A stretch of 64,000 nucleotides of DNA from Candidatus Villigracilaceae bacterium (GCA_026645935.1 JAPKMP010000004.1:44047-108046); one strand, 5' to 3'; shown: positions 16,761 to 33,585, counted from the stretch's first letter. The notes: generated by a model not told the origin, from the sequence alone. A program made the numbers and translations.

Positions 16761-16772
16761 ACTCCTCCACCG

Positions 16773-16805
16773 AGGTGACAGTCACCTCCAAGGTGACTGT
16801 CACCT
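16773..16805. repeat. GTGAC-type hairpin element
   Basis: aggtgacagtcacct-cca-aggtgactgtcacct is a 15-bp perfect stem. Each arm is itself palindromic. Confidence 0.6.
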
Positions 16806-16914: not shown

Positions 16915-17038
16915 TTTCCTCCAGGCGCGGTCACGTTGAAAGTGATTAGATGGATTGACATCTTGCTAATTTTTCAAGATTTGATAAAATCTCCCTGCCT
17001 CATTCAGGGTGCCCCCCTCACCCTGTTTGAGGCATTTT

Positions 17039-20000: not shown

Positions 20001-20107
20001 AGGAACTCGCGCCGGAGTTGCGTCTCGTTGTACCTGCCGGAACGGTAGGTTTCGCGGTGTTCATCAAATCTTTGCACAAGTTGGCGGATGATGTCTGGGG
20101 CAGTCAT
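17039..20107 (-). CDS. Type IIG restriction-modification enzyme (fused PD-ExK nuclease, N6-adenine methyltransferase and specificity domain; MmeI/Eco57I-like)
   Basis: 1022 aa. The N-terminal nuclease context is PDYAF...FFLEAKKP. SAM motif I is VLDPACGSGTFP and motif IV is VIGNPPY. It has a long C-terminal TRD and the tail IDRLVYELYGLSEEEIRIVEGQ. Confidence 0.85.
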   Translation of the reverse strand: MTAPDIIRQLVQRFDEHRETYRSGRYNETQLRREFLDPFFEALGWDVFNKQGYAEMYKDVVHEDSLEIEGENKAPDYAFRIGGQRKFFLEAKKPAVKIETDIHPAFQLRRYAWSAKLPLSILSDFEELAIYDCRAKPDKKDKASVGRVKLYSYKDYVEKWDEIASIFSRDAVLRGSFDAFAESAKLKKGTAEVDDAFLAEIERWRDLLANNIALRNESLNVRELNYAVQMIIDRIVFLRICEDRGVERDEQLKEIGESGDIYENLCLLFKRADARYNSGLFHFSEEKDASSPTDTLTLTLKIDDKPLKDIIKNLYYPESPYVFREIPADILGQVYERFLGKVIRLTAGHRAKVEEKPEVRKAGGVYYTPTYIVEYIVENTVGRLLEGKTPKEAEKIRVLDPACGSGTFPLGAYQYLLDWHLKWYMEHDPEKWATGKKPVIFQTKDGYRLTTSKKKDILLNNIYGVDIDPQAVEVTKLSLLLKVLEGESRETIGSQLALFQERVLPDLGKNIKCGNSLIGNDYYEGRQLTMLVDEEERYRVNAFNWKAGFPQVFIQGGFDAVIGNPPYLRIQGLQENYNDQIEYFSSKYESAVKRFDLYLLFIEKAYKLLQQNGRLGFICPHKFINSDFGSGLRGFLTKKLAIEKLISFGNNLVFDQASTYTGLLFLRNESLEQFKYHEFENIPAINIQPTLFKLTEDDFTTYSLKDFSDTPWTLAKKNVPSILATLSKQPLTLGDVCEEILVGVQSGIDNIHVLKFEEELKGGIYKLFSERAEQSVEIESSLVKPFLTGEDVNRYSEPTNSYYCIYPYKLADGKTKIIEETELKSRFPKGYAYLKEYQKELTEIRVRQKTNPKYWYSCHRSRDMNVFEIERIVTPEISLGGNMSLAPKGMYHNTQVYSLVVRKNFPINKLYILGVMNSKTFWWYLSNTGTTLRGGYFRFKTNYLSPFPIRPINFDDSADKARHDKLVSLVERMLALHKQAPRTPQEQEMVKREIESTDAAIDRLVYELYGLSEEEIRIVEGQ

Positions 20108-20138
20108 GGATACGATTCCCTTTGGATTATTATAATCT

Positions 20139-20173
20139 TAGACCTGACAGGTTTCCAAAACCTGTCAGGTCTA
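20139..20173. repeat. perfect 16-bp-stem palindrome in the divergent RM/alaS-side control region
   Basis: tagacctgacaggttt-cca-aaacctgtcaggtcta. On the minus strand TTGGAA spans the loop, followed by an 18-nt spacer, TATAAT (20134-20129) and 21 nt to the RM ATG. Confidence 0.7.
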
Positions 20174-20181
20174 ATTCTCAG

Positions 20182-20190
20182 TGGTATAAT
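20182..20190 (+). promoter_or_regulatory. candidate extended -10 promoter (TGGTATAAT)
   Basis: TGGTATAAT ends 8 nt before the ATG at 20199, implying a nearly leaderless transcript. The same 9-mer recurs at 20442-20450. Confidence 0.35.
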
Positions 20191-20198
20191 CCCGCCCA

Positions 20199-20276
20199 AT
20201 GAAATCCAGCCTCAAGCCCGCCTCCGCTCGAGCCGCCGCCGCTACATGCGCGACCTGCAAACCTGCCACGGCTTGA
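20199..20276 (+). CDS. candidate Ala-rich leader peptide (25 codons) upstream of alaS
   Basis: Own translation: MKSSLKPASARAAAATCATCKPATA-stop. 9 of 25 codons are Ala, including GCC GCC GCC GCT. An intrinsic terminator starts 22 nt after the stop. It has no SD, but it may be leaderless. Confidence 0.3.
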   Translation: MKSSLKPASARAAAATCATCKPATA

Positions 20277-20297
20277 GACGGAACCGAGAGGAAATCC

Positions 20298-20329
20298 AGT
20301 CCCGAAACCGACAGGTTCGGGACTTTTTT
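20298..20329 (+). terminator. intrinsic terminator upstream of alaS
   Basis: agtcccgaaacc-gaca-ggttcgggact has an 11-12 bp stem with one bulge, followed by TTTTTT. Confidence 0.7.
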
Positions 20330-20340
20330 GTTAATAGTGT

Positions 20341-20429
20341 ATGTCATTCTGAGGGAGTGGCGCAAGGCGCTACGACCGAAGAATCTCGTTTTCTGGCGTA
20401 GAGACCCTTCGCTACGCTCAGGGTGACAT
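20341..20429. repeat. MITE/REP-like imperfect palindromic element (~89 nt)
   Basis: The termini atgtcattctgag and ctcagggtgacat are inverted (11/13). The internal arms cgaagaatctc and gagacccttcg are also roughly inverted. Confidence 0.5.
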
Positions 20430-20441
20430 GCTCAGGACGCT

Positions 20442-20450
20442 TGGTATAAT
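20442..20450 (+). promoter_or_regulatory. candidate extended -10 promoter for alaS (TGGTATAAT)
   Basis: TGGTATAAT lies 32 nt upstream of the alaS ATG. GGAG at 20473-20476 sits 6 nt before the ATG. Confidence 0.4.
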
Positions 20451-20482
20451 TCGCCAGCCATTTCAACACTTCGGAGTACTCC

Positions 20483-23254
20483 ATGACCAAAAAACTCACC
20501 GGCAACCAGATCCGCCAGGACTTCATCGACTTCTTCGTCGAACACGGACACACCGCCGTGCCTTCGATGTCGCTCGTCCCTGGCGGGGACTCCACGCTTC
20601 TCTTCACCAACTCCGGCATGGTGCAGTTCAAGGACGTCTTCCTCGGCACCGATAAAAAACCCTACACCCGCGCCGTCGACTCGCAGAAGTGCATGCGCGT
20701 GGCGGGCAAACACAATGACCTCGAGGATGTGGGCCGCGACGATACGCATCACACTTTTTTCGAAATGCTCGGCAACTGGTCATTCGGCGATTACTACAAA
20801 AAGGAAGCCATCGCCTGGTCATGGCAGTTGCTCACCGAAGTATGGGGCATCCCCAAAGATAAACTTTACGCGACCTGCTTCGAAGACGACAAGGGCGATA
20901 TCCCGCGCGACGACGAAGCCGCCGATGCGTGGAAAGCCCAGCCCGGAATGAATCCGGAGCATGTCTTGTTCTTCGGGCGCAAGGAAAACTTCTGGCAAAT
21001 GGCGGAGACCGGTCCCTGCGGTCCTTGCTCCGAAATTCACATCGACCTCGGCGAAGAACGCGACAACCTGCGCGGCACCGACCACCTTTGCGGCGTGAAC
21101 GGCGAATGCACGCGCTTCCTTGAACTGTGGAACAACGTTTTCATTCAATACAATCTCTTCGACGACGGACGCCTCGAACTGCTCCCTGCCAAACACGTCG
21201 ATACCGGCATGGGCTTCGAACGCATTGTCGCTGTTTTGCAGGGCGTCGATTCCAATTACAAGACCGATCTTTTCACTTCTTCTCTTGAAGTCCTGCGCTC
21301 GCTCACCGGTCACAGCGAAAAGGAAATGCTCGCGGATTTCACACCATATCGCGTCATCTGCGATCACGTGCGCTCGGCGGCGTTTCTCATCGCGGATGGA
21401 GTCGTTCCGGGCAACGCGGGCCGCAATTATGTTGCGCGCATGATCGTCCGCCGCGCGGCTCGCTTCGGATCGAAACTTGGACTCAATGAGCCTTTCCTTT
21501 CGAAGGTCGCTCAAGCTGTCATCGAACAATATGGCGATTTCTATCCGGAATTGAAAAAAGCCCAGCCTGCGATCATGGATAATTTGACTCGGGAAGAAGT
21601 CCGCTTCGCACGCACGGTCGAGGCGGGTACTAACCATTTGCAGAATCTACTCTCCAATCTCCAATCCTCCAATTCTCTGCTCTTGGATGGTCACAAAGCC
21701 TTCGACCTGTACGCCACCTACGGCTTGCCCTTCGAGATCTCCCGCGACATCGCCCGCGAACAGGGGCTCGACGTGGACGAAGCCGGTTTCAACGACGCGA
21801 AGGAACATCACGCCAAGGCTTCCGGTGGCGGTAAAGCCATGGGTAAACTCGGCGGTGAAGACGCTGAATTTTTCGCTGGCATTTTGAAAGACTTGCAAAC
21901 CAAGGGAAAACTTGGCAAGGATGGAGTGGAATACGATCCATACAACGGAACGGATATTTCCCGCTATTCGAATCTTGAAGTCCTGGCTCTCGTTGTGAAC
22001 GGTCGATTGGTTGAATCCGCTGAATTGGATGATCAAGTTGAAGTGATTCTGCCCAGGACCGGCTTCTACATCGAAGCGGGCGGTCAGGTGGACGATACGG
22101 GATACATCCGGTATCTCCCCTCTCCCTCTGGGAGAGGGGCCGGGGGTGAGGGCGGCTGGGAAATCGAAGTCACCGGTATGCGCCGCGCATCCGCGGGTGT
22201 CATCGTGCATATTGGAACGGTGATCTCCGGTCAGCCCAAGGTTGGCGATAAAGCGACGGCCGAAGTGGACATCGTCCGCCGCCACGACATCATGCGCAAC
22301 CACACAGCGACTCATTTGTTGCACAAGGCATTGCACGAGGTTTTGAGCGATCAAGCAAAACAGGCGGGTTCGCTTGTTGCGCCAACGCATCTGCGCTTCG
22401 ACTTCAACCACCCCGAAGCGATGACGCCCGAACAGGTCGAGCGCGTCGAACGCATGGTCAACGAAGCGATTGCGGCGGATATGCCCGTCGTTAAGGTGAC
22501 CAAGTCGCTGGACGAAGCCAAAAAGGAAGGCGCGATGGCGCTCTTCGGCGAGAAATACGGCGAGACTGTCCGCACCATTTCCATTCTTAGCTCCGCTGGG
22601 GGCTTAGCTCCCAACGAGCAAGAGAAGCATTCCTACGAGCTCTGCGGCGGCACTCACCTCGAACGCACGTCCGATATTGGCACATTCCTTATCGTCAGTG
22701 AAGGTTCGGCGGCGGCGGGTGTGAGGCGCATCGAAGCGGTCACGGGCCGCGGCGCGTATGATTTGATCCATAAGCGTTTCAAGACGTTGAAACATGCCGC
22801 GGCTTCCCTCAAGACTTCGCTGGATGAAATCCCTGCGCGCGTGGACGCATTACAAAATGAAATCTCTGAGTTGAAGAAGGAACTTGCCAACCTTAGATCG
22901 CAATCAGCGCTATCCACCTTCCACTCGCTGCTCTCCAACGTGCAAACCGTGAAGGATGTCAACATCCTCGGTGTGGAAATCCCGAATGCAGATGTTGACA
23001 CTCTTCGTTCGCTCGCTGATAAATTCCGCGAGAAACACCCTAAGAACGGCGCGGCGGTCTTTGTCTCCGGAGGGACTGTCATCGCCACCGCGACCGAAGA
23101 CGTGGTCAAACGGGGAGTCAATGCCGGGGATTTGATCACAGGCATCGGCGGGAAGGGAGGCGGGCGTCCGAATCTTGCACAGGGCAGCTTGAATGGAGAT
23201 GTCAAAGAATCGCTTTCAAAACTTCCGAAGGTGATTGAAGGAAAGTTGAAATAA
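20483..23254 (+). CDS. alaS: alanine--tRNA ligase
   Basis: 923 aa with a canonical AlaRS N-terminus (IRQDFIDFFVEHGHT, FTNSGMVQFK), the editing-domain HTATHLLH motif and a C-terminal DHHA1-like GGGRPNLAQG. Confidence 0.95.
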   Translation: MTKKLTGNQIRQDFIDFFVEHGHTAVPSMSLVPGGDSTLLFTNSGMVQFKDVFLGTDKKPYTRAVDSQKCMRVAGKHNDLEDVGRDDTHHTFFEMLGNWSFGDYYKKEAIAWSWQLLTEVWGIPKDKLYATCFEDDKGDIPRDDEAADAWKAQPGMNPEHVLFFGRKENFWQMAETGPCGPCSEIHIDLGEERDNLRGTDHLCGVNGECTRFLELWNNVFIQYNLFDDGRLELLPAKHVDTGMGFERIVAVLQGVDSNYKTDLFTSSLEVLRSLTGHSEKEMLADFTPYRVICDHVRSAAFLIADGVVPGNAGRNYVARMIVRRAARFGSKLGLNEPFLSKVAQAVIEQYGDFYPELKKAQPAIMDNLTREEVRFARTVEAGTNHLQNLLSNLQSSNSLLLDGHKAFDLYATYGLPFEISRDIAREQGLDVDEAGFNDAKEHHAKASGGGKAMGKLGGEDAEFFAGILKDLQTKGKLGKDGVEYDPYNGTDISRYSNLEVLALVVNGRLVESAELDDQVEVILPRTGFYIEAGGQVDDTGYIRYLPSPSGRGAGGEGGWEIEVTGMRRASAGVIVHIGTVISGQPKVGDKATAEVDIVRRHDIMRNHTATHLLHKALHEVLSDQAKQAGSLVAPTHLRFDFNHPEAMTPEQVERVERMVNEAIAADMPVVKVTKSLDEAKKEGAMALFGEKYGETVRTISILSSAGGLAPNEQEKHSYELCGGTHLERTSDIGTFLIVSEGSAAAGVRRIEAVTGRGAYDLIHKRFKTLKHAAASLKTSLDEIPARVDALQNEISELKKELANLRSQSALSTFHSLLSNVQTVKDVNILGVEIPNADVDTLRSLADKFREKHPKNGAAVFVSGGTVIATATEDVVKRGVNAGDLITGIGGKGGGRPNLAQGSLNGDVKESLSKLPKVIEGKLK
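22115..22152 (+). repeat. GC-rich palindromic element inserted in-frame in alaS
   Basis: ctcccctctccctctgggagaggggccgggggtgaggg has a 10-bp stem cccctctccc/gggagagggg. It encodes LPSPSGRGAGGEG inside the AlaRS body. A second copy is at 24510-24546. Confidence 0.7.
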
Positions 23255-25222: not shown

Positions 25223-26809
25223 ATGAACACCTTACGCAAAGCCTTTGGCTATTGTGCAGTTTTCCTGTTGGTGTTTCTCGCCGCATGCGGCGGGTCGCCA
25301 GCGACCGAAGCCCCCGCAACAGAAGCCGAATACTACGATTACGCTCCCGCCGCCACGGTAGCCGCTCCCATGGAGGAACAGCCCGCTTCCATCATTCCGC
25401 AAGGCGGCAATTACCCGGCTCCCACTGCAAACGCAAACAACGAGCCGTACGACATGTTCTTCGAAGACTATGGAGTCAATCCGTCCATTGATACCGAAGA
25501 CGACAACCTCTCCACGTTCGCATTGGATGTGGATACCGGCTCGTACACCGTCATGCGGAATTATCTCAACGACGGTTTCCTGCCGCCTTCCGAATCTGTG
25601 CGCGTGGAGGAATACATCAATTATTTCGATCAGGGGTATGGACTTCCATCCGAGCATCAGACCTTCAACATTTACATCGACGGCGGACCTTCGCCCTTCA
25701 CCCAAACCGAACGCTACGATATGCTCCGCATCGGGATTCAGGGATACGAGGTCCCGGACGAGGAGAGGAAAGATGCGTCTCTGACCTTTGTAATCGATGT
25801 CTCCGGTTCGATGGACATGGACAACCGCCTGGGTCTGGTCAAGCAATCGCTCGAAATGCTCGTCGAGCAGCTTCATCGCGATGATACGGTCAGCATCGTG
25901 GTTTATGGATCGGATGCGCGCATCGTTCTGGACCCGACACCTGGTTCGCAATCCGGACGGATTCTCTCCGCCATCTATTCGCTCCGCCCTGAAGGCGCGA
26001 CCAACGCCGAAGCCGGCCTGCGGCTCGGATACCGCATGGCGATGGAAGCCTATAATCCGGATGGAATCAACAGAGTGATCCTCTGCTCGGACGGCGTGGC
26101 AAACGTCGGCGAGACCGGACCCGATGCCATCCTCGAAGAGATCGACCATTTTGTCGAAGAGGGCATCACGCTCACCACCATCGGCTTCGGCATGGATAAT
26201 TACAACGACACACTGATGGAGCAACTCGCAGACAACGGCGACGGCTTCTATGCCTACGTGGACGACCGCGATGAAGCCCGCAAACTCTTTGTCGATGAGA
26301 TCACAGGAACATTACAGACCATTGCACTGGACGCCAAGGTGCAGGTGGAGTTCAATCCTGATGTGGTGAGGAACTACCGGCTCGTCGGTTACGAAAACCG
26401 CGATGTGGCAGATGAAGACTTCCGCGACAATGATGTGGATGCGGGCGAGATCGGGGCGGGTCATTCCGTGACGGCGTTGTACGAGGTCAAACTTTATCCC
26501 GAAGCCTATGGAAAGATCGCGACTGTGTTTATGCGTTGGGAGGACCCCGATACGCATCAAGTCATCGAGATTTCGCAGGATTATTACGCCGACCAACTCG
26601 GGCGCGATTTCCGCGAGACGGATCCCTTCTTTCAGCGCGCGGTAGTCGTTGCGGAATTCGCCGAGATTTTGAAAGGCAGTTACTGGGCGGAGGACAGCTC
26701 GCTCGATGATGTGTACGATGAAGCCCGCCGTATCGAAGACGACCTGCGCCGCGACGACGACATGGAAGAGTTTGTCGACCTCGTGAAGATGGCAAGACGC
26801 CTGTGGTGA
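25223..26809 (+). CDS. von Willebrand factor type A domain lipoprotein (YfbK-like)
   Basis: It starts at MNTLRKAFGYCAVFLLVFLAACGG (lipobox) with GGAGAAG upstream. The vWA MIDAS motif is DVSGSM. The C-terminus is long and conserved-looking. Confidence 0.8.
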   Translation: MNTLRKAFGYCAVFLLVFLAACGGSPATEAPATEAEYYDYAPAATVAAPMEEQPASIIPQGGNYPAPTANANNEPYDMFFEDYGVNPSIDTEDDNLSTFALDVDTGSYTVMRNYLNDGFLPPSESVRVEEYINYFDQGYGLPSEHQTFNIYIDGGPSPFTQTERYDMLRIGIQGYEVPDEERKDASLTFVIDVSGSMDMDNRLGLVKQSLEMLVEQLHRDDTVSIVVYGSDARIVLDPTPGSQSGRILSAIYSLRPEGATNAEAGLRLGYRMAMEAYNPDGINRVILCSDGVANVGETGPDAILEEIDHFVEEGITLTTIGFGMDNYNDTLMEQLADNGDGFYAYVDDRDEARKLFVDEITGTLQTIALDAKVQVEFNPDVVRNYRLVGYENRDVADEDFRDNDVDAGEIGAGHSVTALYEVKLYPEAYGKIATVFMRWEDPDTHQVIEISQDYYADQLGRDFRETDPFFQRAVVVAEFAEILKGSYWAEDSSLDDVYDEARRIEDDLRRDDDMEEFVDLVKMARRLW

Positions 26810-26823
26810 CGTGAAAAAACAAG

Positions 26824-26856
26824 ACTCACCCGGAAACTAAGGTTTCACGGGTGAGT
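26824..26856. terminator. hairpin between the convergent vWA gene and the ebo-like operon
   Basis: actcacccg...cgggtgagt is a 9-bp stem with a 15-nt loop. Confidence 0.5.
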
Positions 26857-27004
26857 TCGTCTTTAAAAGCAATCGGGATGCGGTTAACTTTGAAATCGCG
26901 GATTTATTTAATCCTTTTCCGCGCGCTTTGCGGTCTGCGCTCATCCGCGTCCCAAAATTAATTCTGGTTTTTTATGTTTAGACAGCGCAATCCGGGCAGG
27001 GAAT

Positions 27005-27901
27005 CTATTTGAAGAAAACAAAGGCGGTGATTATGATCAACTGCGCCAATGGATAATAACTGGCGTTATCGAACAATTTTGCCGCCATCCGCGCTTCCCT
27101 TTGCTTATTGAAAAGTTCGTATCCCGGTTTCAGCAGCAGAACCCCTCCCGCGGCGGCGCTGGCAAGCAGGTAAAGCCAGCCCAACCCGAGCGGCGAAGCC
27201 TGTGGGAGAAGCAGGCTGAAAATCACTGTAAAGCCCAGGGTCAGCAGAACAATGATCGCTGCGGTTTGAGTCCCGAGCTGCAGGGGAATCGTCTTGGCGT
27301 TGACCCGGCGATCCTCGGCTGTGTCGTTCCAATCCGCCGGAACATTTTGTCCGCCAATCTCCCAGAAGAATACCCAGGCGAGCACGAGCAGGACAAGTTG
27401 AAACGATGGATTGGGATCGACGACATAGATCGCCGAAATGGGTCCGCTCGATTTGACCAGTCCGCTGGCAAAGGTCCGCAGGTAGGTTACCTTTAGAAGA
27501 AGGCAATAGATCACCTCGAGGATCGCGGCCGCGATCAGGATGACGACGATGAACGGGTTCAACAGGTAGCAGCCGATAAGCGCCAGGACGAACCATCCTG
27601 CAAACCAAAGGATCCCGCTGCGATAACTCAATGCGTTCTGTGCCAGCGGATAGCGCAGGTCAGACGCCTCGACGGAATAACCGGCGTTGATTCCGCCCGC
27701 AAATTTTTCCTTATCCACGGCGATGCCGACCAGATCGTTGAGGGCGTAGATCGCCGTGTATGCGGCGAAGGCGGTAAAGATCGAAAGGAGAACGACCTGC
27801 CATTGAGGAAAATCTCCCAGCCACAACAGCGCGACAAAACCGGGCGTGGCAAGGTCCAATATCCCGTGCGTGGTGCGGGAAAGCGCGAAGAAACGTTTCA
27901 T
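27005..27901 (-). CDS. UbiA-family aromatic/cyclitol prenyltransferase (EboC-like)
   Basis: Polytopic membrane ORF. The first Asp-rich motif is ALNDLVGIAVDKEK and the second is NDTAEDRRVNAKT. I chose ATG 27901 because GGAGA lies 6 nt upstream. The alternative start 28006 lies 5 nt after the ubiG-like stop. Confidence 0.75.
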   Translation of the reverse strand: MKRFFALSRTTHGILDLATPGFVALLWLGDFPQWQVVLLSIFTAFAAYTAIYALNDLVGIAVDKEKFAGGINAGYSVEASDLRYPLAQNALSYRSGILWFAGWFVLALIGCYLLNPFIVVILIAAAILEVIYCLLLKVTYLRTFASGLVKSSGPISAIYVVDPNPSFQLVLLVLAWVFFWEIGGQNVPADWNDTAEDRRVNAKTIPLQLGTQTAAIIVLLTLGFTVIFSLLLPQASPLGLGWLYLLASAAAGGVLLLKPGYELFNKQREARMAAKLFDNASYYPLAQLIIITAFVFFK

Positions 27902-28011
27902 TGATTGTCTCCACAAATCATGTCGATGCAAACCGGCGGGCGATGCGATCTCCGGATCAATTGGGAGGACCGCTTCATGGATCCACGGACCCTGTTGCAG
28001 TGACATATAAA

Positions 28012-28719
28012 TTATTTCTTTTTGAAATGCGCCATGTAGTTCACGTCTTCTTTATCTGGGGCGACCTTCCAACTGCGGGCGAGGGGATTGTACATCAGAC
28101 TGGCGAGACGCACGAACTCCAAACCGGCTTCGCGATTCCAGGCTTTCAATTCAACCGGGCGGATCAATTTGGAGTAGGTGTGTGTGCCGCGGGGTAAAAG
28201 GCGCAAAATATATTCGCCGCCGACTATCGCAAACAAAAATGCCTTGAGTGTGCGGTTGATGGTCGAAAAGAAGGCGAAACCGCCCGGCTTCAACGCTTGG
28301 GCGCAAGCCGCCACCACTTTGCCGGGTTCCGGCACATGCTCCAGCATTTCCATGCAGGCCACTGCGTCGAACATACCCGCCTGGTTGCCGGCGAATGCTT
28401 CCGTGCTTTCATACCGGTAGTCGATGTTCAATCCCTGTTGTTGAGCGTGTCTTCGGGCGACTTGAAGCGACGCCTCGGACAGGTCCAGGCCTGTCACTTG
28501 CGCCCCGGCTTTTGCCAGCGCCTCAGAGAGGATTCCGCCCCCGCATCCCACATCCAGGATTTTTGGGTTCGGAGTCGGAATCCTCTCCATGATGAACTTC
28601 GTCCGCAAAGGGTTGATGGTATGGAGAGTTCCCATCTCGCCTTTGGGATCCCACCAGATTTGCGAGACCCGGTCGAACTTGTCGATTTCCCTGTTGTCGG
28701 CGTTATCAAACGTGGTCAT
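28012..28719 (-). CDS. ubiG: UbiG-type class I SAM-dependent O-methyltransferase
   Basis: 235 aa, alignable by eye along its whole length with E. coli UbiG. Shared blocks are WWDPKGEMGTLHTINPLR, ILDVGCGGGILSE, CMEMLEHVPEP and GTHTYSKLIRPVEL. Confidence 0.75.
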   Translation of the reverse strand: MTTFDNADNREIDKFDRVSQIWWDPKGEMGTLHTINPLRTKFIMERIPTPNPKILDVGCGGGILSEALAKAGAQVTGLDLSEASLQVARRHAQQQGLNIDYRYESTEAFAGNQAGMFDAVACMEMLEHVPEPGKVVAACAQALKPGGFAFFSTINRTLKAFLFAIVGGEYILRLLPRGTHTYSKLIRPVELKAWNREAGLEFVRLASLMYNPLARSWKVAPDKEDVNYMAHFKKK

Positions 28720-29833
28720 AGTTTATGGCGATCCAATCCTCTAAATTCTTGACTGCGAACTCGATCTCGTCCGTTTTGATATCGTTCAGGAACACGCAAT
28801 CGCCGATCCCACGCGGCATCGGGACGCGCTGGAGTCCGTTTCGGTGGTAGGTGCGCTCCGTCAGCGAAGCCCAGAGCAGTTCCGGGTCCAGAAGCGAGGC
28901 GTCGAGTTCGTATCCCAACGAAACGACCAGGCGGAAGATGCGCTCCGTCTCTTCGTCCGATAAAAGATTCCTGCCGCTCGCGATTACTGCCGAGAGTAGG
29001 ATGTCGAATAATACCGCCTCGCCGTGGAATAAATGGGCTTCGTGGCGGGTTTCGAGGCCGTAACTGAACGTATGCCCGAAATCCACTCTGCGCGCCAATT
29101 CCTCTTCGAATAGATTGGGCTGTAATTCATCGATCATTCCGTCGATCGCGCGGTCGAGGATGACGCCGCCTTCCTCGTCCTGAAAATGCGCATCGACGCT
29201 TCGCGCCCCGTGAATCTCGAGCAGGTCGAACAATCCCGCATCTTTGATGACCGCCAGTTTGATGATCTCGCATACCCCGTTCAGGATGTGGCGGCGCGGC
29301 AGGGTCTTCAGGAAGGATTTATCGAGAAGGACTTTTTGCGGGGGATGAAACGCTCCCAGGCGGTTCTTGCTCCCGTTGAAATTGATTCCGGTCTTGATGC
29401 CGATCGATGCGTCGACATATCCCATTAGGGTGGTCGGCACTTTGATATGCGGGACGCCGCGGCGATAGTTCGCCGCCACGAAGCCGGCCACATCGGTCAG
29501 CACGCCACCCCCGATGGCGATGATCGGTTCGTCCCTGCGGTGGATCGGGAAGGAATCCAATTCACGCAAAAAATAAAGATGGTGTTCCAGGGTCTTGTTC
29601 TCTTCGCCGCCGGGAAAGGTGACGATCTTTGCCTCGATGTGATGGTGTGAAAAATAGTTTCGAATTTCTACGGAGAAGTGCCTCTCCACATTTTCGTCCA
29701 CCACCACGAATCGGCGGGCGTCTTCTATTCGGCCCACCGAGAGAAGCGCCCAATTCTGCGGATGGAACAGGTCCGAGGTATTGATGACCTCGTATTCGAT
29801 CGTGTGTTGATATGTGACTCGTCTTTTGCTCAT
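28706..29833 (-). CDS. sugar-phosphate cyclase of the 3-dehydroquinate synthase superfamily (EboD/EEVS-like)
   Basis: It starts at MSKRRVTYQH. It has the GGGVLTDVAGFVAA nucleotide loop, metal/His motifs (DFGHTFSYGLE, HGEAVLFD) and RHILNGVCEIIK. There is a 14-nt overlap with the ubiG-like start. Confidence 0.75.
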   Translation of the reverse strand: MSKRRVTYQHTIEYEVINTSDLFHPQNWALLSVGRIEDARRFVVVDENVERHFSVEIRNYFSHHHIEAKIVTFPGGEENKTLEHHLYFLRELDSFPIHRRDEPIIAIGGGVLTDVAGFVAANYRRGVPHIKVPTTLMGYVDASIGIKTGINFNGSKNRLGAFHPPQKVLLDKSFLKTLPRRHILNGVCEIIKLAVIKDAGLFDLLEIHGARSVDAHFQDEEGGVILDRAIDGMIDELQPNLFEEELARRVDFGHTFSYGLETRHEAHLFHGEAVLFDILLSAVIASGRNLLSDEETERIFRLVVSLGYELDASLLDPELLWASLTERTYHRNGLQRVPMPRGIGDCVFLNDIKTDEIEFAVKNLEDWIAINYDHV

Positions 29834-29840
29834 TCTTACT

Positions 29841-30320
29841 CTAAATGATCCGTTTCCAATTGGGTTTTGCTTCCAAAACACGCCTGGCAAGCGCCTGCGC
29901 CAGTTCAAGGCTGTGGTTCTTGTAATTGCCGCATTGCGCGATGTTGGCGTAGGGCACTTCGCTTGCGGCGAGAACATCGTTCAGTATTTTTTCATACACG
30001 TCATGGACGGCTTGCATACGCCCTTCGTTGAAAAGGATAAGATAAAATCCGGTCTGGCATCCCATCAGGCCGAGGGAGATGAAATTTTTCGGCATGTATT
30101 TTTGAAAACCCCATAAAAGAAAATGCTCGAAGGAGTGCATTTCTGTGGACGAAAGAAAAACGGAATTCGGCTCATTGATGCGCAGGTCGACGGAATACAC
30201 CACGTCGCCGGAGGGTCCCGGCGTTGCGGCGCGTAATTTGACGTGCGGAGCCTTCAGCAGTCGGTGGTCCAATTCCCCGACCGTCCCAGCCTCCCAGCCG
30301 AGTTGGGCAAAATCCATCAT
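29841..30320 (-). CDS. luxS: S-ribosylhomocysteine lyase (LuxS family)
   Basis: 159 aa. HSFEH matches HTLEH, MGCQTGFY holds the catalytic Cys and QCG holds the third metal ligand. All align with B. subtilis LuxS as I recall it. Confidence 0.8.
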   Translation of the reverse strand: MMDFAQLGWEAGTVGELDHRLLKAPHVKLRAATPGPSGDVVYSVDLRINEPNSVFLSSTEMHSFEHFLLWGFQKYMPKNFISLGLMGCQTGFYLILFNEGRMQAVHDVYEKILNDVLAASEVPYANIAQCGNYKNHSLELAQALARRVLEAKPNWKRII

Positions 30321-30363
30321 GACTCTCTCCTATAAATTCACGCGCGTAGGGCGCGATCATGGT

Positions 30364-31605
30364 TTACACGAATTGCGACAAATGCTTGTAGCTATCGTTC
30401 AGCGCCTTTTCCCAGGAGGCGACGTGATGATACAGTTCGACGGACGCATACCCCGAGAAGCCGTTGTCGGTCAGCGCCTTGAAACTTGCGGCGAAATCCA
30501 TCGTCCCTTCGCCGGGAATCTCGTGAAAGTGGACGATGCCTGTCAGGGTGTTCGCGACCATTTTATCCATCAAGAGTTTACCGTTACTGTCTTTGGTGCT
30601 TCGCAGGTAAATGATGATCGGACGGGCGCGTTCCAGCACGTCGTAGGTCAAACCGGGGACGGAGATAAGATAGACGAAAATTTCGCTCTCGAATGGGGAC
30701 TGACCCGCAAAAAGGTTGTTATAGTCCACGAAGGCGGGGTCGGTGGTAATGTTTACCGAGCCAAGAATCGATTCGATGCGTTTCTTCTGTCTTGCATCTG
30801 GCAGTTCGTCGTGGAAGTAAATCGGGTGGTCGCAGTCTACCAAAAGGTAATCTGCCGATTCGGGGAAGTAGATCAGATACCTGGCGAAGTTCAGATCCAT
30901 TTTGAGGCTGTCCGCCCATTTGACCAGTTTCAAGTTGTAACCTTCCTGTGAATCGGATACGTGCAGGAATTTGGCGCGTTTCGCGGCCCTGCCCAGGGCT
31001 TCGAGGTAATTCGTCTCGGAACAGTAATTGTGATTCAGGTCAAGGTGCAGTTGAAAGCGGTTGGAGCCGACTTCATCCACCAAGCTCATGCCCTGTTCCA
31101 GCGTTTCGATGTACATGCCGGGTTCGGGTTCGATCAGAAGCGTGATGTCCTCGTCCTCGCGCAATTCCTTCAAACATTGATGGACGCTGTCCACAAGCAA
31201 TTCGCGCGGATCGACCAACGGATTGCTGACGTGCTCATCGCGGATGAAGCCGCTTCCGAACGTGACGAGGGGCACATCCAACGCCCGGGCAACGTGGATC
31301 CCGCGCTTCACAAGGTCGATGCGGCGTTTCCTTCCGGCGAGGTCGGGACTCATGAGCGAAGGTTCATGCGGACGCTGGGGAGTGAAAAAATGCGATGCGG
31401 TCGAAACACAGGCGGCGGTCACTTCCAATGAGTCCAGTTTCTTTTTGACTGCGGCAAGATATTCACTTGTGATATCGAAGGGGTTGAACTGGTCGCGGTG
31501 GAAGGAAAGTTCCACGCCGGGGTAACCTGCCTTGTCCACTTCTTCGATGGATCGCAGGAAATCGAGGTTGGTCAAGCCAAATGTGCTGTAACTGAGTTTG
31601 ATCAT
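30364..31605 (-). CDS. xylose-isomerase-like TIM-barrel protein (sugar-phosphate isomerase/epimerase family; EboE-like) with a large insertion
   Basis: 413 aa. Typical blocks are GYPGVELSF, PLVTFGSGF, LLIEPEPG, LHLDLNH and HFHEIPGEG. About 150 extra residues lie between HVSDSQ and HFHE. Confidence 0.65.
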   Translation of the reverse strand: MIKLSYSTFGLTNLDFLRSIEEVDKAGYPGVELSFHRDQFNPFDITSEYLAAVKKKLDSLEVTAACVSTASHFFTPQRPHEPSLMSPDLAGRKRRIDLVKRGIHVARALDVPLVTFGSGFIRDEHVSNPLVDPRELLVDSVHQCLKELREDEDITLLIEPEPGMYIETLEQGMSLVDEVGSNRFQLHLDLNHNYCSETNYLEALGRAAKRAKFLHVSDSQEGYNLKLVKWADSLKMDLNFARYLIYFPESADYLLVDCDHPIYFHDELPDARQKKRIESILGSVNITTDPAFVDYNNLFAGQSPFESEIFVYLISVPGLTYDVLERARPIIIYLRSTKDSNGKLLMDKMVANTLTGIVHFHEIPGEGTMDFAASFKALTDNGFSGYASVELYHHVASWEKALNDSYKHLSQFV

Positions 31606-31834
31606 TCAAAACGCTCCAAACAGAAAACCTGTCCGGTTGGGGGCAGGCAGAGGTCTTTCACCTCCGGCTGGCAATTCGCGATTTTACCATCGCTTGTGAA
31701 GTATTGGACTTTCCTATTTGCAAAGATTCAGACACAACGCTCCCTCCATGGGTAGCGGTGAAGACGTTCGCCACAAAAACGACATGATGGAGTTCTTATC
31801 TGTTGGCGATGGCTGTCGCTTGGGTTTAAAAACG

Positions 31835-31862
31835 GAGTCCGAAGTCTCCAGACTTCGGACTC
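31835..31862 (-). terminator. intrinsic terminator of the ABC importer operon
   Basis: gagtccgaagtc-tcca-gacttcggactc is a 12-bp stem followed on the minus strand by TTTTT. Confidence 0.75.
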
Positions 31863-31902
31863 TCTGTTTGGAACTCCCAAGCTTGAAACTTCCGGGAATA
31901 TT

Positions 31903-33585
31903 TTACTGCTTAAACTTCCAATTCTGCACGCCCCAGCTCATGCTGCCCCAGGTGTTGAGTGTATACCCTTCAAGGCTGTCGGCGATTCCGTAATTATCCT
32001 GGAAGAGATAAAGATAGACCTGCGGCAGGTCGTCGATCACTGCCTGACCGATTTCGCAGTACGCGGCTTTGCGTGTTTCGATGTCGAAGCTTGTACCGGC
32101 GGTTTCGAGCGCCGCATCCACATCCTCATTCACCCAGCGGAAGTAGTTACCGCCGGTGGGGTTGTCTGCGGAGGGGATGCGCGAGGAATGATAGGCGTCG
32201 AAGTTGTAACTCTGCGGCTCGGTGGTGAAGCCGCGGTCGAAGATCAGCATGTCGTAATCGCCGATCATGCGCGGAGAGTTATCCTCGAATGTGCCGAAGA
32301 TGATCGAGAAATCATAGTTCTGGATGCGCGCCTCGATGCCGACGGCTTTCAGGTTCTCGACGATGAACTCCTCGGTAAGTTGCAGCGGGTCGAAGGCCGT
32401 ATATCCCTGAAGTTCAAGAGAGAGGCGGGTTCCATCCTCTGCGTGCATCGCGCCTTTTGCAACACGGATGCCGTCAGCGCCCATCTCCCATCCGGCTTCG
32501 TCCAGCAATTTGTTCGCGGCTTCCACATCGAATCCGTACTTGCGCGGAAGTTTGCACTTGTACCAGCCGTAAGCGAACGGGTTGGTCGAATCGCCGACGC
32601 TTCCCTGCAAGACATCCTGTTGCAGCGATTCGTAATTGATGGCATGGGCGATCGCCTGTCGCACGCGGATATCGCCCAGGATCGGGTGCGGCGCGGCGGC
32701 GGACGGATCGCCATCGAAAGGCGCGCTCAAGTTGAAATCGATGGCCATATTCCAGATGCCGGGGATGAGATATTGCTGGGCGACTCCCTTCAATAATTCA
32801 TCGTAATCGACTTTGAATTCGCCGGGCCACAAATGAACATGACCGTCCCCATTCAACATCATCGCGGTTTGTGCGGCAGGTTCGGGGACGATCTCGAATA
32901 CGATACTGTCGAGATATGGTTTTCCCTCTTCGAAGTAATTCGGGTTGCGGGTCATCGTGATGCGTTTGCCCGATTCCCAATTGCTGACGATGAACGGTCC
33001 GGCCGTTACAGGCGCGCGGTTCCATTCCCAATTTGCCATTTCCTCCGGGGCGCCTGTGGCATGGCGCGGGAATAAACCGTAGGCAAATTGATCGAGATAA
33101 CCGGGATAGGGTTCTGAGTAGGTGAGGATGGTCGTCAGATCGTCGGGCGTTTCGACGTTCGCGATCAAATCGAATCCGCTCGTGCCGACCAATGCGCCGG
33201 AGTTCGGATTCGAAAGCACCTCGATTGTGAAGCGCACATCGTCCGAAGTCAGCGGCTCGCCGTCGGACCATTTCAGGTCAGCCATCAGCTTCCATGTCAC
33301 GGTCAGGTGGTCATCCGAGATCACGGGCAAGCCTTCTGCAAGCACCGGCACAAAATTTCCGGTCTCATCGATGGTGACCAAACCCGTCATCGAAGTGGCG
33401 TCTGCCGCCTGCCGGACGATCGCCGCATCTGCCAGATAGAAATTCAATGTAGCCGGTTCTTCGGGCAGGATGAGGACGGCTGTCCCGCCTCCGCCCCCGC
33501 CGGATGCCGGTTCTTCACCCCCGGTTCCGCATCCGCTGAGGACGAACCCCAATATAACGAACAGTGTGAACAGTTTGAGTTTCAT
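31903..33585 (-). CDS. ABC transporter substrate-binding lipoprotein, family 5 (peptide/nickel type)
   Basis: It starts at MKLKLFTLFVILGFVLSGCG (lipobox, GGAG upstream). It has typical SBP_bac_5 blocks (KWSDGEPLTSDDV, NKLLDEAGW). Confidence 0.85.
   Translation of the reverse strand: MKLKLFTLFVILGFVLSGCGTGGEEPASGGGGGGTAVLILPEEPATLNFYLADAAIVRQAADATSMTGLVTIDETGNFVPVLAEGLPVISDDHLTVTWKLMADLKWSDGEPLTSDDVRFTIEVLSNPNSGALVGTSGFDLIANVETPDDLTTILTYSEPYPGYLDQFAYGLFPRHATGAPEEMANWEWNRAPVTAGPFIVSNWESGKRITMTRNPNYFEEGKPYLDSIVFEIVPEPAAQTAMMLNGDGHVHLWPGEFKVDYDELLKGVAQQYLIPGIWNMAIDFNLSAPFDGDPSAAAPHPILGDIRVRQAIAHAINYESLQQDVLQGSVGDSTNPFAYGWYKCKLPRKYGFDVEAANKLLDEAGWEMGADGIRVAKGAMHAEDGTRLSLELQGYTAFDPLQLTEEFIVENLKAVGIEARIQNYDFSIIFGTFEDNSPRMIGDYDMLIFDRGFTTEPQSYNFDAYHSSRIPSADNPTGGNYFRWVNEDVDAALETAGTSFDIETRKAAYCEIGQAVIDDLPQVYLYLFQDNYGIADSLEGYTLNTWGSMSWGVQNWKFKQ

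What the first reader, a model, noticed from the sequence alone, without database searches (positions are those of the whole stretch)
27005..31605. Ebo-like five-gene operon with LuxS and a UbiG-type methyltransferase: candidate pathway to an unknown prenylated, methylated carbocyclic lipid
Seen in the sequence: five minus-strand genes are packed head to tail. The gaps are 43 nt and 7 nt, then a 14-nt overlap, then 5-110 nt depending on the start chosen. The operon is bounded by the upstream operon's terminator (31835-31862) and a convergent hairpin (26824-26856). The five products are as follows. (1) A xylose-isomerase-like TIM barrel with about 150 extra residues between HVSDSQ and HFHEIPGEG. 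(2) A LuxS retaining every catalytic and metal residue I can place (HSFEH, MGCQTGFY, QCG). (3) A sugar-phosphate cyclase of the dehydroquinate-synthase superfamily. (4) A methyltransferase alignable end to end with E. coli UbiG. (5) A UbiA prenyltransferase whose first Asp-rich motif reads NDLVGIAVD, with Gly where the family normally has Asp. Established knowledge: TIM barrel + DHQS-like cyclase + UbiA is the EboE/EboD/EboC core of the ebo cluster, whose product has not been chemically defined. LuxS and UbiG are not part of that cluster, and EboA, EboB and EboF are absent here. Inference: this is a variant pathway making a prenylated, O-methylated cyclitol or aromatic. LuxS might clear the SAH-derived by-product of the methyltransferase, or it might supply the C5 dione DPD as a building block.
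Basis: partly seen in the sequence, partly recalled or inferred. Interest (0 to 1): 0.72.

Follow-up and report, generated by a model that had tools for sequence, protein, structure and literature searches.

The report
Mobile operon for a cyclitol-derived prenyl lipid
Five tightly packed genes form a conserved, horizontally mobile module that most likely turns the sugar phosphate sedoheptulose-7-phosphate into a prenylated, O-methylated, quinone-like membrane lipid, apparently using a repurposed LuxS-type enzyme, and no paper held in the searchable library describes the pathway.

Summary
In detail: five minus-strand genes sit at the stated coordinates with the stated spacing. The order is TIM barrel, LuxS-like, cyclase, UbiG-type methyltransferase, UbiA prenyltransferase.

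This order recurs in 60 of 80 species-level genomes. The other 20 loci are mostly cut short by a contig end. No flanking gene family is shared by more than 7 loci.

Exactly these five genes sit as a 54% GC island in Mycobacterium szulgai and M. angelicum. The module also occurs in Legionellales and Rhodanobacteraceae.

The "Ebo-like" label is only an analogy:
- EboB and EboF are absent.
[quoted passage not shown] It is neither AroB nor EboD.
- The TIM barrel is a ketose-3-epimerase-like fold with a ~140-residue insertion.

In several lineages the TIM barrel and the LuxS-like protein are fused into one polypeptide. One variant lacks the methyltransferase but keeps LuxS. This argues that LuxS processes the cyclitol rather than recycling SAH.

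Best model: S7P → EEV → enolisation and dehydration by TIM plus LuxS-like → hydroxyquinol head group → prenylation → UbiG-type O-methylation.

The closest precedent is the sesquiterpene quinone BE-40644. The product itself is inferred, not shown.

The parts
30364..31605 (-). Xylose-isomerase-like TIM barrel of the ketose-3-epimerase type, with a ~140-residue alpha/beta insertion at about residues 221-356. It is the first gene of the operon.
   Evidence: PF01261 at 119 bits. The nearest PDB sequences are the TM0416 ketose 3-epimerase, L-ribulose 3-epimerase and IolI. The AF2 model has pLDDT 94.7. Foldseek finds ketose 3-epimerases (TM0416), UlaE, IolI and the QuiC1 dehydroshikimate dehydratase, with target TM-scores of 0.78-0.84 for TM0416, UlaE and IolI; QuiC1 matches through its barrel domain only (query TM 0.51, target TM 0.35). 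All matches cover the barrel only. E161, D189, H215 and E390 are invariant in 63 homologues.
29841..30320 (-). Non-canonical LuxS-like metalloenzyme. Its metal ligands and catalytic Glu and Cys are retained, but the canonical Asp-x-Ser-Pro loop is replaced.
   Evidence: PF02664 at 109 bits, but below all ten NCBIfam LuxS equivalog cut-offs. D77, S79 and P80 (E. coli numbering) are invariant in 5 reference LuxS. In this family they are Ser, Gly/Ala and Leu, with Asp in 0 of 75 members. In other lineages the domain is fused to the TIM barrel.
28706..29833 (-). [quoted passage not shown]
   Evidence: ValA (4P53) scores 306 bits and DDGS (5TPR) 244 bits, against 142 bits or less for true DHQS. The residues that separate EEVS from DDGS, Asp281 (VDFGH) and His360 (YHRNG), are both of the EEVS type, and they are conserved in distant variants. 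The aroB model scores 224 bits against a cut-off of 305.
28012..28719 (-). UbiG-type SAM-dependent O-methyltransferase.
   Evidence: TIGR01983 UbiG scores 260 bits against a cut-off of 103. It aligns over residues 5-234 with E. coli UbiG, 4KDC, at 253 bits. The aligned region includes the segment NR..K..L.A.VG.EYILR..P.GTH.
27005..27901 (-). UbiA-superfamily intramembrane prenyltransferase. An alternative upstream start lies at 28006.
   Evidence: PF01040 at 83 bits. No NCBIfam subfamily cut-off is passed and there is no PDB sequence hit. Family conservation begins at Met36. The motifs are NDLVGxxxD and NDTxED, the latter matching DxxxD.
31606..31834 (-). 5' leader and promoter region of the operon.
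   Evidence: This is a 229-nt non-coding stretch between the neighbour's terminator and the TIM start codon. It has no Rfam match, and no sigma-70-like site was found on this strand.
31835..31862 (-). Intrinsic terminator of the upstream peptide-ABC-transporter operon, which insulates the five genes.
   Evidence: A 12-pair stem with 7 GC pairs followed by a T run.
26823..26856 (.). Hairpin between the convergent UbiA and vWA genes, probably a bidirectional terminator.
   Evidence: It folds at -22.8 kcal/mol on the plus strand and -25.9 kcal/mol on the minus strand, with T-rich tails.

Best explanation
The five genes form a self-contained biosynthetic module for a membrane-bound, prenylated and O-methylated derivative of a C7 cyclitol. 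The product is most likely an aromatised hydroxyquinol/benzoquinone head group.

Proposed steps:
1. The EEVS-type cyclase converts sedoheptulose-7-phosphate to 2-epi-5-epi-valiolone (EEV). The family is assigned by sequence and fingerprint; the activity is inferred.
2. The ketose-3-epimerase-like TIM barrel and the LuxS-like metalloenzyme act together on this alpha-hydroxy-ketone. Both folds catalyse metal-assisted enolisation next to a carbonyl. LuxS additionally performs carbonyl migration and beta-elimination. Two beta-eliminations plus tautomerisation would give 5-(hydroxymethyl)benzene-1,2,4-triol, which is EEV minus 2 H2O. This step is inferred.
3. UbiA attaches an isoprenoid chain (family shown; substrate inferred).
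4. The UbiG-type enzyme methylates the hydroxyl next to the quinol oxygen. This gives a methoxy-(hydroxy)methyl-prenyl-benzoquinol with the same ring substitution pattern as demethoxyubiquinol (inferred).

This route would need neither chorismate nor O2.
For: Conservation as a unit:
- The same gene order occurs in 60 of 80 species-level loci.
- No flanking gene family is shared by more than 7 loci.
- Exactly the five genes form a 54% GC island between the Rv0986-88-like and grcC2-like genes of M. szulgai and M. angelicum, whose flanks are 62-70% GC. All five are intact.
- The module is also present in Legionellales, Rhodanobacteraceae and other lineages.

Cyclase: EEVS-type by score and by both fingerprint residues.

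Methyltransferase: UbiG equivalog-level match and an end-to-end alignment to 4KDC.

TIM barrel: a ketose-3-epimerase-like fold with an intact metal site, and IolI and a dehydroshikimate dehydratase among its structural neighbours.

TIM and LuxS-like: fused into one polypeptide, in operon order, in at least six representative proteins (P0123, P0132, P0135, P0140, P0153, P0182). Two further fusion proteins found with P0123 (P0271, P0272) sit in loci where the fusion is followed by the cyclase and UbiA.

Precedent: BE-40644, an isoprenoid quinone, is made from S7P via an EEVS, dehydration and a UbiA-superfamily prenyltransferase (PMC5133447 section 3.7; PMC3280531; bioRxiv 10.1101/2020.02.06.932020).
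Against: - No product has been observed. Aromatisation, the regiochemistry and the prenyl chain length are all inferred.
- The LuxS-like protein keeps every catalytic and metal residue, plus H11 and R39, so S-ribosylhomocysteine lyase activity is not excluded.
- Loss of the Asp-x-Ser-Pro loop also occurs in other LuxS-like proteins of unknown function. Its role in homocysteine binding rests on my own recollection of the B. subtilis structures.
- The TIM barrel's nearest relatives are epimerases and isomerases rather than dehydratases.
- UbiA enzymes can also form ethers or act on non-aromatic acceptors.
- EEVS cannot be told apart from 2-epi-valiolone synthase with the data in hand.
Confidence: 0.55

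Rival explanations
1. The product is a non-aromatic, gadusol- or 4-deoxygadusol-like methoxy-cyclohexenone that is then prenylated, giving a membrane-anchored UV screen or antioxidant. The LuxS-like enzyme would supply the enolisation and dehydration that MT-Ox or DDGS provide elsewhere.
For: An EEVS plus a methyltransferase is the gadusol logic in vertebrates (PMC4426668). EEV minus one H2O has the formula of desmethyl-4-deoxygadusol. The cyclase is close to both EEVS and DDGS.
Against: - The methyltransferase is a UbiG equivalog-level match, not a MysB or MT-Ox type.
- There is no oxidoreductase domain.
- Many carriers come from dark habitats such as groundwater, sludge and an EGSB reactor, judging by the record titles.
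- A second enolising enzyme would be redundant for a single dehydration.
Confidence: 0.2
2. The LuxS gene encodes a genuine S-ribosylhomocysteine lyase. It either removes the SAH-derived by-product of the methyltransferase or supplies DPD as a building block. The other four genes build the lipid.
For: All catalytic and metal residues, H11 and R39 are conserved. The Pfam LuxS score is far above threshold.
Against: - In several lineages the LuxS-like domain is fused to the TIM barrel, not to Pfs. Canonical methyl-cycle fusions are Pfs-LuxS.
- Variant L085 has no methyltransferase in the core but keeps the TIM-LuxS fusion.
- The Asp-x-Ser-Pro loop, invariant in five reference LuxS, is replaced in 75 of 75 family members.
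- No kinase or C-C bond-forming enzyme is present to use DPD.
- No Pfs gene travelled with the mycobacterial island.
Confidence: 0.12
3. The operon is a member of the ebo (thallusin-type) cluster family.
For: It shares three fold classes with ebo: a TIM barrel, a DHQS-superfamily cyclase and a UbiA enzyme. It also shares the logic of cyclitol, then aromatic, then prenylation (bioRxiv 10.64898/2026.05.21.724671).
Against: - The core genes eboB and eboF are absent from the operon and from the five-gene mycobacterial island.
- The cyclase is EEVS-type and uses S7P, whereas EboD uses mannose-6-P (PMC12904256).
- No EboE or EboC model appears among the NCBIfam hits.
- Chloroflexota is not among the phyla the preprint names as carrying the ebo core.
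Confidence: 0.03
4. The adjacency is ordinary primary metabolism: aroB, luxS, ubiG and ubiA happen to lie together.
For: Automatic annotation would name the genes this way. The aroB model gives 224 bits.
Against: - The aroB score is below its cut-off of 305, and the protein scores twice as high against ValA as against any DHQS.
- The block is conserved across phyla while its flanks vary.
- It was transferred as a unit into Mycobacterium, a genus I know to use menaquinone rather than ubiquinone.
- No other ubi genes are among the 20 window neighbours scanned.
Confidence: 0.02

Closest known systems
BE-40644 pathway of Actinoplanes sp. A40644 (sesquiterpene quinone)
   Same: Both use an EEVS to convert sedoheptulose-7-P to 2-epi-5-epi-valiolone. 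The cyclitol is then dehydrated, and a UbiA-superfamily enzyme prenylates it. The product is an isoprenoid quinone (PMC5133447 section 3.7; PMC3280531).
   Different: - I know of no LuxS-like enzyme or UbiG-type O-methyltransferase in that pathway, and I could not read the primary papers.
- BE-40644 is a strain-specific actinomycete antibiotic cluster linked to mevalonate genes.
- This module is a compact 4-5-gene operon kept in about 188 species-level genomes and in several phyla.
ebo cluster (eboA-F; thallusin/saccharoquinoline)
   Same: Both combine a xylose-isomerase-like TIM barrel, a DHQS-superfamily cyclase and a UbiA prenyltransferase. In both, a cyclitol is turned into an aromatic ring and then prenylated.
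   Different: - EboB (TatD-like), EboF (phosphatase) and EboA are absent here.
- EboD cyclises mannose-6-P to a C6 cyclitol, whereas the cyclase here is an EEVS-type C7 enzyme.
- LuxS-like and UbiG-like genes are not part of ebo.
- The ebo ring incorporates aspartate to form a quinoline.
Ubiquinone biosynthesis (UbiA, UbiG)
   Same: Both use a UbiA-family prenylation and a UbiG-type O-methylation of a prenylated polyhydroxybenzene. The predicted ring pattern equals that of demethoxyubiquinol, except that CH2OH replaces CH3.
   Different: - The head group would come from a sugar-phosphate cyclitol, not from chorismate via 4-hydroxybenzoate.
- There are no UbiD/X, UbiE, UbiH/F/I or UbiU/V/T genes.
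- No hydroxylases are needed.
Gadusol and mycosporine pathways (EEVS + MT-Ox; DDGS + O-MT)
   Same: Both pair an S7P cyclase with an O-methyltransferase acting on an enolised cyclitol (PMC4426668).
   Different: Those pathways have no prenyltransferase, TIM barrel or LuxS-like enzyme, and they use a different methyltransferase family.
Canonical LuxS (S-ribosylhomocysteine lyase) and Pfs-LuxS fusions
   Same: The fold, the metal site (His, His, Cys) and the catalytic Glu and Cys are the same. The chemistry is carbonyl migration plus beta-elimination on a polyhydroxy carbonyl compound.
   Different: - The Asp-x-Ser-Pro loop is lost.
- The protein is always adjacent to, or fused with, a TIM barrel and an EEVS rather than Pfs.
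- It scores below all NCBIfam LuxS cut-offs.

Membership tests
ebo cluster | Presence of the core genes eboB (TatD-like hydrolase) and eboF (alkaline-phosphatase family) together with eboC and eboE. | tested here: not met
   The operon has only five genes, none with a TatD or PF01663 domain. The mycobacterial island holds only these five. The 20 window neighbours scanned with Pfam include no TatD or PF01663 protein.
ebo cluster | [quoted passage not shown] | tested here: not met
   The best relatives are ValA EEVS at 306 bits and DDGS at 244 bits, and the EEVS fingerprint residues D281 and H360 are present. No EboD sequence was available for a direct comparison.
ebo cluster | The TIM barrel and the UbiA enzyme belong to the EboE and EboC subfamilies. 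| tested here: inconclusive
   No EboE or EboC model appears among the NCBIfam hits, even at E<=10. I could not confirm that such models are in the release, and I had no reference sequences.
3-dehydroquinate synthase (AroB) | Scores above the aroB equivalog cut-off and is closest to true DHQS. | tested here: not met
   TIGR01357 scores 224 bits against a cut-off of 305. True DHQS structures score 142 bits or less, against 306 bits for ValA.
[quoted passage not shown] | Active-site fingerprint that separates EEVS from DDGS: Asp281 and His360 in ValA numbering. | tested here: met
   VDFGH and YHRNG align with ValA VDFGH and KHRDG, whereas DDGS has IAYGH and LTRDG. Both residues are conserved in the family and in distant variants. 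Only 2 of the 14 published fingerprint sites could be checked, and 2-epi-valiolone synthase is not excluded.
[quoted passage not shown] | Converts sedoheptulose-7-phosphate to 2-epi-5-epi-valiolone. | not testable with these tools
   This needs an enzyme assay.
UbiG O-methyltransferase | Passes the UbiG equivalog model and aligns over the full length with a solved UbiG. | tested here: met
   TIGR01983 scores 260 bits against a cut-off of 103. 4KDC scores 253 bits over residues 5-234.
UbiG O-methyltransferase | Acts within a ubiquinone pathway on polyprenyl-hydroxyphenol or demethylubiquinol. | tested here: not met
   No other ubi genes are in the operon, among the 20 window neighbours scanned, or in the mycobacterial island. 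Whole genomes could not be searched.
Canonical LuxS (S-ribosylhomocysteine lyase) | Metal ligands and the catalytic Glu and Cys. | tested here: met
   H54, E57, H58, C83 and C128 (E. coli numbering) are present in 75 of 75 family members.
Canonical LuxS (S-ribosylhomocysteine lyase) | The Asp-x-Ser-Pro loop before the catalytic Cys, and a score above the curated LuxS cut-offs. | tested here: not met
   The loop is invariant in 5 reference LuxS. Here it reads Ser-x-Gly/Ala-Leu, with Asp in 0 of 75 members. The best NCBIfam LuxS score is 120 bits against a cut-off of 208.
Canonical LuxS (S-ribosylhomocysteine lyase) | Works with Pfs in the activated methyl cycle. | tested here: inconclusive
   The context is always TIM plus EEVS, and fusions are to the TIM barrel rather than to Pfs. 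Whether Pfs is present elsewhere in these genomes could not be checked.
UbiA prenyltransferase superfamily | Pfam UbiA domain and two Asp-rich motifs. | tested here: met
   PF01040 scores 83 bits. The second motif, DxxxD, is intact. In the first motif the central Asp is Gly in this lineage but Asp in the Legionellales and L085 copies. No defined subfamily cut-off is passed.
Ketose 3-epimerase-like TIM barrels (PF01261) | TIM-barrel fold with a Glu/Asp/His/Glu metal site. | tested here: met
   The AF2 model has pLDDT 94.7. Foldseek gives target TM-scores of 0.78-0.84 to TM0416, UlaE and IolI. E161, D189, H215 and E390 are invariant. The ~140-residue insertion has no counterpart in these structures.

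The most novel reading that the evidence does not exclude
The module is a previously unrecognised route to a ubiquinone-like benzoquinone that needs neither chorismate nor O2. The ring is built from sedoheptulose-7-phosphate through a cyclitol. A LuxS-fold enzyme, working with or fused to a ketose-epimerase-like TIM barrel, has been repurposed as a cyclitol isomerase/dehydratase. The resulting methoxy-prenyl-benzoquinol would serve as a membrane electron carrier in Anaerolineales and in other carriers. These carriers often encode the module next to anaerobic-respiration genes: nirS, a NorB-like gene, NiFe hydrogenase, or HemN with Fnr.
Probability: 0.25. Interest if true: 0.9.

Novelty: new variant of a known kind. 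Interest (0 to 1): 0.74.

Why it matters
If the model holds, it matters in four ways.
- It adds a third biosynthetic logic for isoprenoid quinone head groups, from a sugar-phosphate cyclitol. The other two are chorismate-derived (ubiquinone, menaquinone, plastoquinone) and polyketide-derived.
- It does so in Anaerolineales, a group whose members recur in wastewater-sludge and groundwater metagenomes, going by the record titles of the loci found here. Their membrane redox chemistry appears, to my knowledge, to be little studied.
- It would give the LuxS fold a second, non-quorum-sensing catalytic role. That would caution against reading every "luxS" annotation as AI-2 potential.
- The module is small, self-contained and horizontally mobile. 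It occurs in two culturable mycobacteria, M. szulgai DSM 44166 and M. angelicum DSM 45057, so the hypothesis can be tested directly by lipidomics, gene deletion or heterologous expression.

Tried and rejected
- **First AF2 run.** The TIM barrel with 12 close homologues gave pLDDT 51 and was discarded. A 63-sequence alignment built after the fusion-protein search gave pLDDT 94.7.
- **The insertion domain.** The Foldseek hits cover only the barrel, so its fold remains unassigned.
- **Regulatory elements.** An Rfam scan of 26500-32200 found no riboswitch or leader, only a sub-threshold chance miRNA match. The sigma-70 scan found no promoter on the operon strand.
- **UbiA against solved structures.** No sequence-level hit.
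- **TIM protein against the plasmid collection.** No match.
- **Papers not held.** The primary EEVS fingerprint, EboD and sugar-phosphate-cyclase papers (PMC5400686, PMC11567786, PMC3127856) were unavailable. Only two of the 14 fingerprint sites could therefore be checked, and the gene content of the BE-40644 cluster could not be compared.
- **LuxS residues that bind homocysteine.** A literature search found nothing usable.
- **Organism names.** The cluster look-up added none for the divergent variants.
- **Ideas considered and dropped.**
  - A glycerol-1-phosphate dehydrogenase with DGGGP-synthase-like ether-lipid reading was dropped because G1PDH scores only 26 bits.
  - Protocatechuate from DHQ via an AsbF-like dehydratase was dropped because the cyclase is not a DHQS.
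  - A futalosine-like use of a 5-substituted ribose was dropped because no mqn genes are present.

Full report
**1. The observation**

- TIM barrel, 30364-31605.
- LuxS-like, 29841-30320, after a 43-nt gap.
- Cyclase, 28706-29833, after a 7-nt gap when the internal Met is used as the start.
- Methyltransferase, 28012-28719, with a 14-nt overlap.
- UbiA, 27005-28006, after a 5-nt gap, or 27005-27901 after a 110-nt gap.

Conservation across 54 homologues begins at Met36 of the long UbiA ORF, so 27901 is the likelier start.

The terminator of the upstream peptide-transporter operon at 31835-31862 is found. The hairpin at 26823-26856 folds at -23 to -26 kcal/mol.

GC content across the operon (52-55% in the 2-kb windows that span it) is that of the surrounding DNA. 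The neighbours are unrelated housekeeping genes: AlaRS, an alpha-amylase, a vWA protein, a peptide ABC transporter, an amidohydrolase and MnmA. The 229-nt leader has no Rfam match.

**2. Conservation**

The window's TIM protein is 83-100% identical to more than 120 protein clusters from Anaerolineales and other Chloroflexota metagenome-assembled genomes.

A scan of one genome per species found 188 relatives, of which the best 80 loci were kept. A tblastn search with the five window proteins shows the order TIM, LuxS, cyclase, methyltransferase, UbiA in 60 loci. The other 20 are mostly cut short by a contig end.

Among those 60 loci, no flanking gene family recurs in more than 7. The five genes, not a larger neighbourhood, are therefore the conserved unit.

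**3. Horizontal mobility**

Two isolate genomes carry the operon: Mycobacterium szulgai DSM 44166 and M. angelicum DSM 45057. It lies on contigs of 131 kb and 696 kb.

There it is a 54% GC block in DNA whose flanks are 62-70% GC. It sits exactly between homologues of an ABC ATPase, a MacB/FtsX permease and a CrtC-lipocalin protein on one side and a polyprenyl synthase on the other. From my own knowledge this is the Rv0986-Rv0988 / grcC2 neighbourhood of M. tuberculosis.

All five genes are intact. They are 92-98% identical between the two species and about 70-76% identical to the nearest Anaerolineales copies. The transferred unit is exactly the five genes, which argues that they suffice for the function.

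**4. The cyclase**

It is not AroB. The aroB model scores 224 bits against a cut-off of 305.

[quoted passage not shown] It scores 244 bits to the Anabaena desmethyl-4-deoxygadusol synthase (5TPR). It scores at most 142 bits to any true dehydroquinate synthase.

Two active-site positions are reported to separate bacterial EEVS from DDGS (PMC4426668, citing Kean 2014). Both are of the EEVS type here:
- Asp in VDFGH, where DDGS has IAYGH.
- His in YHRNG, where ValA has KHRDG and DDGS has LTRDG.

Both residues are conserved across the family and in distant variants. The substrate is therefore most likely sedoheptulose-7-phosphate and the product a C7 ketocyclitol. I could check only these two of the 14 fingerprint sites, and I cannot exclude a 2-epi-valiolone synthase.

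**5. The methyltransferase and the prenyltransferase**

The methyltransferase passes the UbiG equivalog model, 260 bits against a cut-off of 103. It aligns over residues 5-234 with E. coli UbiG (4KDC) at 253 bits. The aligned region includes the segment that I recall as UbiG's membrane-interaction region. This points to a prenylated polyhydroxy-aromatic substrate.

The UbiA protein belongs to PF01040 but to no defined subfamily. Its best NCBIfam hits, all weak, are the generic UbiA-like polyprenyltransferase models. 4-Hydroxybenzoate prenyltransferase, geranylgeranylglycerol-phosphate (ether-lipid) prenyltransferase and MqnP follow at similar low scores. It has no sequence-level PDB hit.

Its first motif reads NDLVG(x3)D in the Anaerolineales, Mycobacterium and Rhodanobacteraceae copies. 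The second motif, DxxxD, is intact.

**6. The TIM barrel**

By sequence, the nearest solved proteins are the Thermotoga ketose 3-epimerase TM0416, an L-ribulose 3-epimerase and IolI. In TM0416 the motifs flanking the insertion are 3 residues apart, against 143 here.

A first AF2 model from a shallow alignment was useless. A 63-sequence alignment gave pLDDT 94.7 and pTM 0.90.

Foldseek matches the barrel to several structures. Target TM-scores are 0.78-0.84 for TM0416, UlaE and IolI:
- ketose 3-epimerases;
- UlaE;
- the isomerase Art22;
- IolI;
- the TIM domain of 5HMQ, which I recall to be the Pseudomonas QuiC1 dehydroshikimate dehydratase; it matches at query TM 0.51 and target TM 0.35 because the target carries a second domain.

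The metal site (E161, D189, H215, E390) is invariant. All these enzymes abstract a proton next to a carbonyl on a metal-bound sugar or cyclitol. The insertion is a confidently predicted alpha/beta subdomain with no assigned relative.

**7. The LuxS-like protein**

It keeps the metal ligands, the catalytic Glu and Cys, H11 and R39. However, the loop Asp-x-Ser-Pro just before the catalytic Cys is replaced. That loop is invariant in E. coli LuxS and in four solved LuxS from other phyla. In this family it reads Ser-x-Gly/Ala-Leu, with Asp in 0 of 75 members.

From my own recollection of the B. subtilis complexes, this loop contacts the homocysteine moiety. I could not verify that in the held literature.

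The decisive evidence came from a search of 1.84 billion representative proteins. Six representative proteins are single polypeptides with an N-terminal homologue of this TIM barrel and a C-terminal LuxS-like domain, in operon order: P0123, P0132, P0135, P0140, P0153 and P0182. Canonical LuxS fusions in the same list are to Pfs, the SAH nucleosidase. A follow-up search with P0123 found two more fusion proteins, P0271 and P0272.

Gene neighbourhoods of the fusion proteins and of more distant relatives:
- A Legionellales genome has TIM-LuxS fusion, cyclase, methyltransferase, UbiA and an MFS transporter, with overlapping stop and start codons.
- Locus L085 has a FabH/FabA/KS/ACP set, a radical-SAM/SPASM gene, then the fusion, the cyclase and UbiA, with no methyltransferase.
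- Further five-gene copies occur in a Rhodanobacteraceae genome, next to divergent HemN and a Crp/Fnr regulator, and in two unnamed lineages.
- One copy is split by a transposase.

The invariant core is therefore TIM, LuxS-like, EEVS-type cyclase and UbiA. LuxS is tied to the TIM barrel and the cyclase, not to the methyltransferase.

**8. Mechanism**

Shown:
- family membership of all five proteins;
- the EEVS fingerprint;
- conservation and transfer of the block as a unit;
- the TIM-LuxS fusion.

Inferred:
- EEV has a C1 ketone, hydroxyls at C2-C4 and a leaving group (the tertiary OH) at C5. This is the same functional-group layout as ring-opened S-ribosylhomocysteine, which has a C1 carbonyl, three hydroxyls and a C5 thioether.
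- A LuxS-type enzyme (carbonyl migration plus beta-elimination) and an epimerase/dehydratase-type TIM barrel could together remove two waters and aromatise EEV to 5-(hydroxymethyl)benzene-1,2,4-triol without any redox cofactor.
- Prenylation ortho to a phenolic OH, followed by UbiG-type methylation of the neighbouring hydroxyl, would give a ring substituted like demethoxyubiquinol.

The precedent is BE-40644. It is an isoprenoid quinone made from S7P through an EEVS, dehydration and a UbiA-superfamily prenyltransferase (PMC5133447 section 3.7; PMC3280531; bioRxiv 10.1101/2020.02.06.932020).

**9. Comparison with ebo**

The ebo comparison is an analogy, not membership.
- The ebo core is eboB, C, E and F. 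EboD makes a C6 cyclitol from mannose-6-P. A 2026 preprint assigns ebo to thallusin, with aspartate incorporated into a quinoline ring (bioRxiv 10.64898/2026.05.21.724671; PMC12904256).
- Here EboB and EboF are absent, the cyclase is EEVS-type, and no Ebo model is hit.

**10. Prior knowledge**

The only mention I found is a table of ORFs next to nirS in a Chloroflexi genome. It lists "xylose isomerase-like, LuxS, EEVS, UbiG, UbiA" without comment (PMC8756737). Full-text searches combining LuxS, EEVS, prenyltransferase and quinone found nothing else.

**11. Verdict**

The feature is real, strongly conserved and mobile. It is best filed as a new variant of cyclitol-derived meroterpenoid or isoprenoid-quinone pathways, with an apparently new role for the LuxS fold. 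The product and the individual steps after the cyclase remain inferred.

Noticed in passing
L057 10001-14512 (Mycobacterium szulgai DSM 44166) and L065 (M. angelicum DSM 45057): The complete five-gene operon forms a 54% GC island in DNA whose flanks are 62-70% GC. It is inserted between Rv0986-88-like genes and a grcC2-like polyprenyl synthase. All genes are intact and about 70-76% identical to Anaerolineales copies. These are the only cultured carriers seen.
   Followed up: partly
P0123, P0132, P0135, P0140, P0153, P0182, P0271, P0272; loci L083-L085: These are single polypeptides that fuse the TIM barrel to the LuxS-like domain. P0135 lacks the large insertion. The Legionellales version is followed by the cyclase, the methyltransferase, UbiA and an MFS transporter.
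   Followed up: yes
L085 4712-13684: A variant cluster: KAS III, two FabA/ApeI-like dehydratases, a ketosynthase, ACP, a phosphopantetheinyl transferase and a radical-SAM/SPASM gene, followed by the TIM-LuxS fusion, the cyclase and UbiA. It has no methyltransferase. A NorB-like oxidase and a multicopper oxidase lie nearby. L089 also has a radical-SAM/SPASM gene directly upstream of the TIM gene, and a transposase between the TIM and LuxS genes.
   Followed up: no
L087 5566-12500 (Rhodanobacteraceae MAG); L086; PMC8756737 SURF MAG 42: Copies of the operon repeatedly lie beside anaerobic or respiratory genes: divergent HemN plus a Crp/Fnr regulator, NiFe hydrogenase maturation genes, and nirS. 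This may be chance, or it may hint at a role under anoxia.
   Followed up: no
P0133, P0138, P0139, P0142-P0144, P0196 (representative search): Many LuxS-like proteins outside this operon also lack the canonical Asp before the catalytic Cys. P0196 carries a ~310-residue N-terminal extension of unassigned family (I did not scan it). There seems to be a wider, uncharacterised non-canonical LuxS-like group.
   Followed up: no
window 16001-20107: A low-GC stretch, 44.6-47.9% against about 54% elsewhere, holds a 1022-aa Eco57I/MmeI-like fused restriction-modification enzyme at 17039-20107 on the minus strand. It is probably a horizontally acquired defence gene.
   Followed up: no
L072 (binned as 'uncultured Dokdonella') 8113-21222: This is a 68% GC copy of the operon, 55-70% identical to the window's. 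It has a divergent Rieske-plus-FAD oxidoreductase upstream and an HMG-CoA reductase/GHMP-kinase fusion about 4.5 kb downstream. The Rhodanobacteraceae hit P0317 suggests the gammaproteobacterial assignment is genuine.
   Followed up: partly
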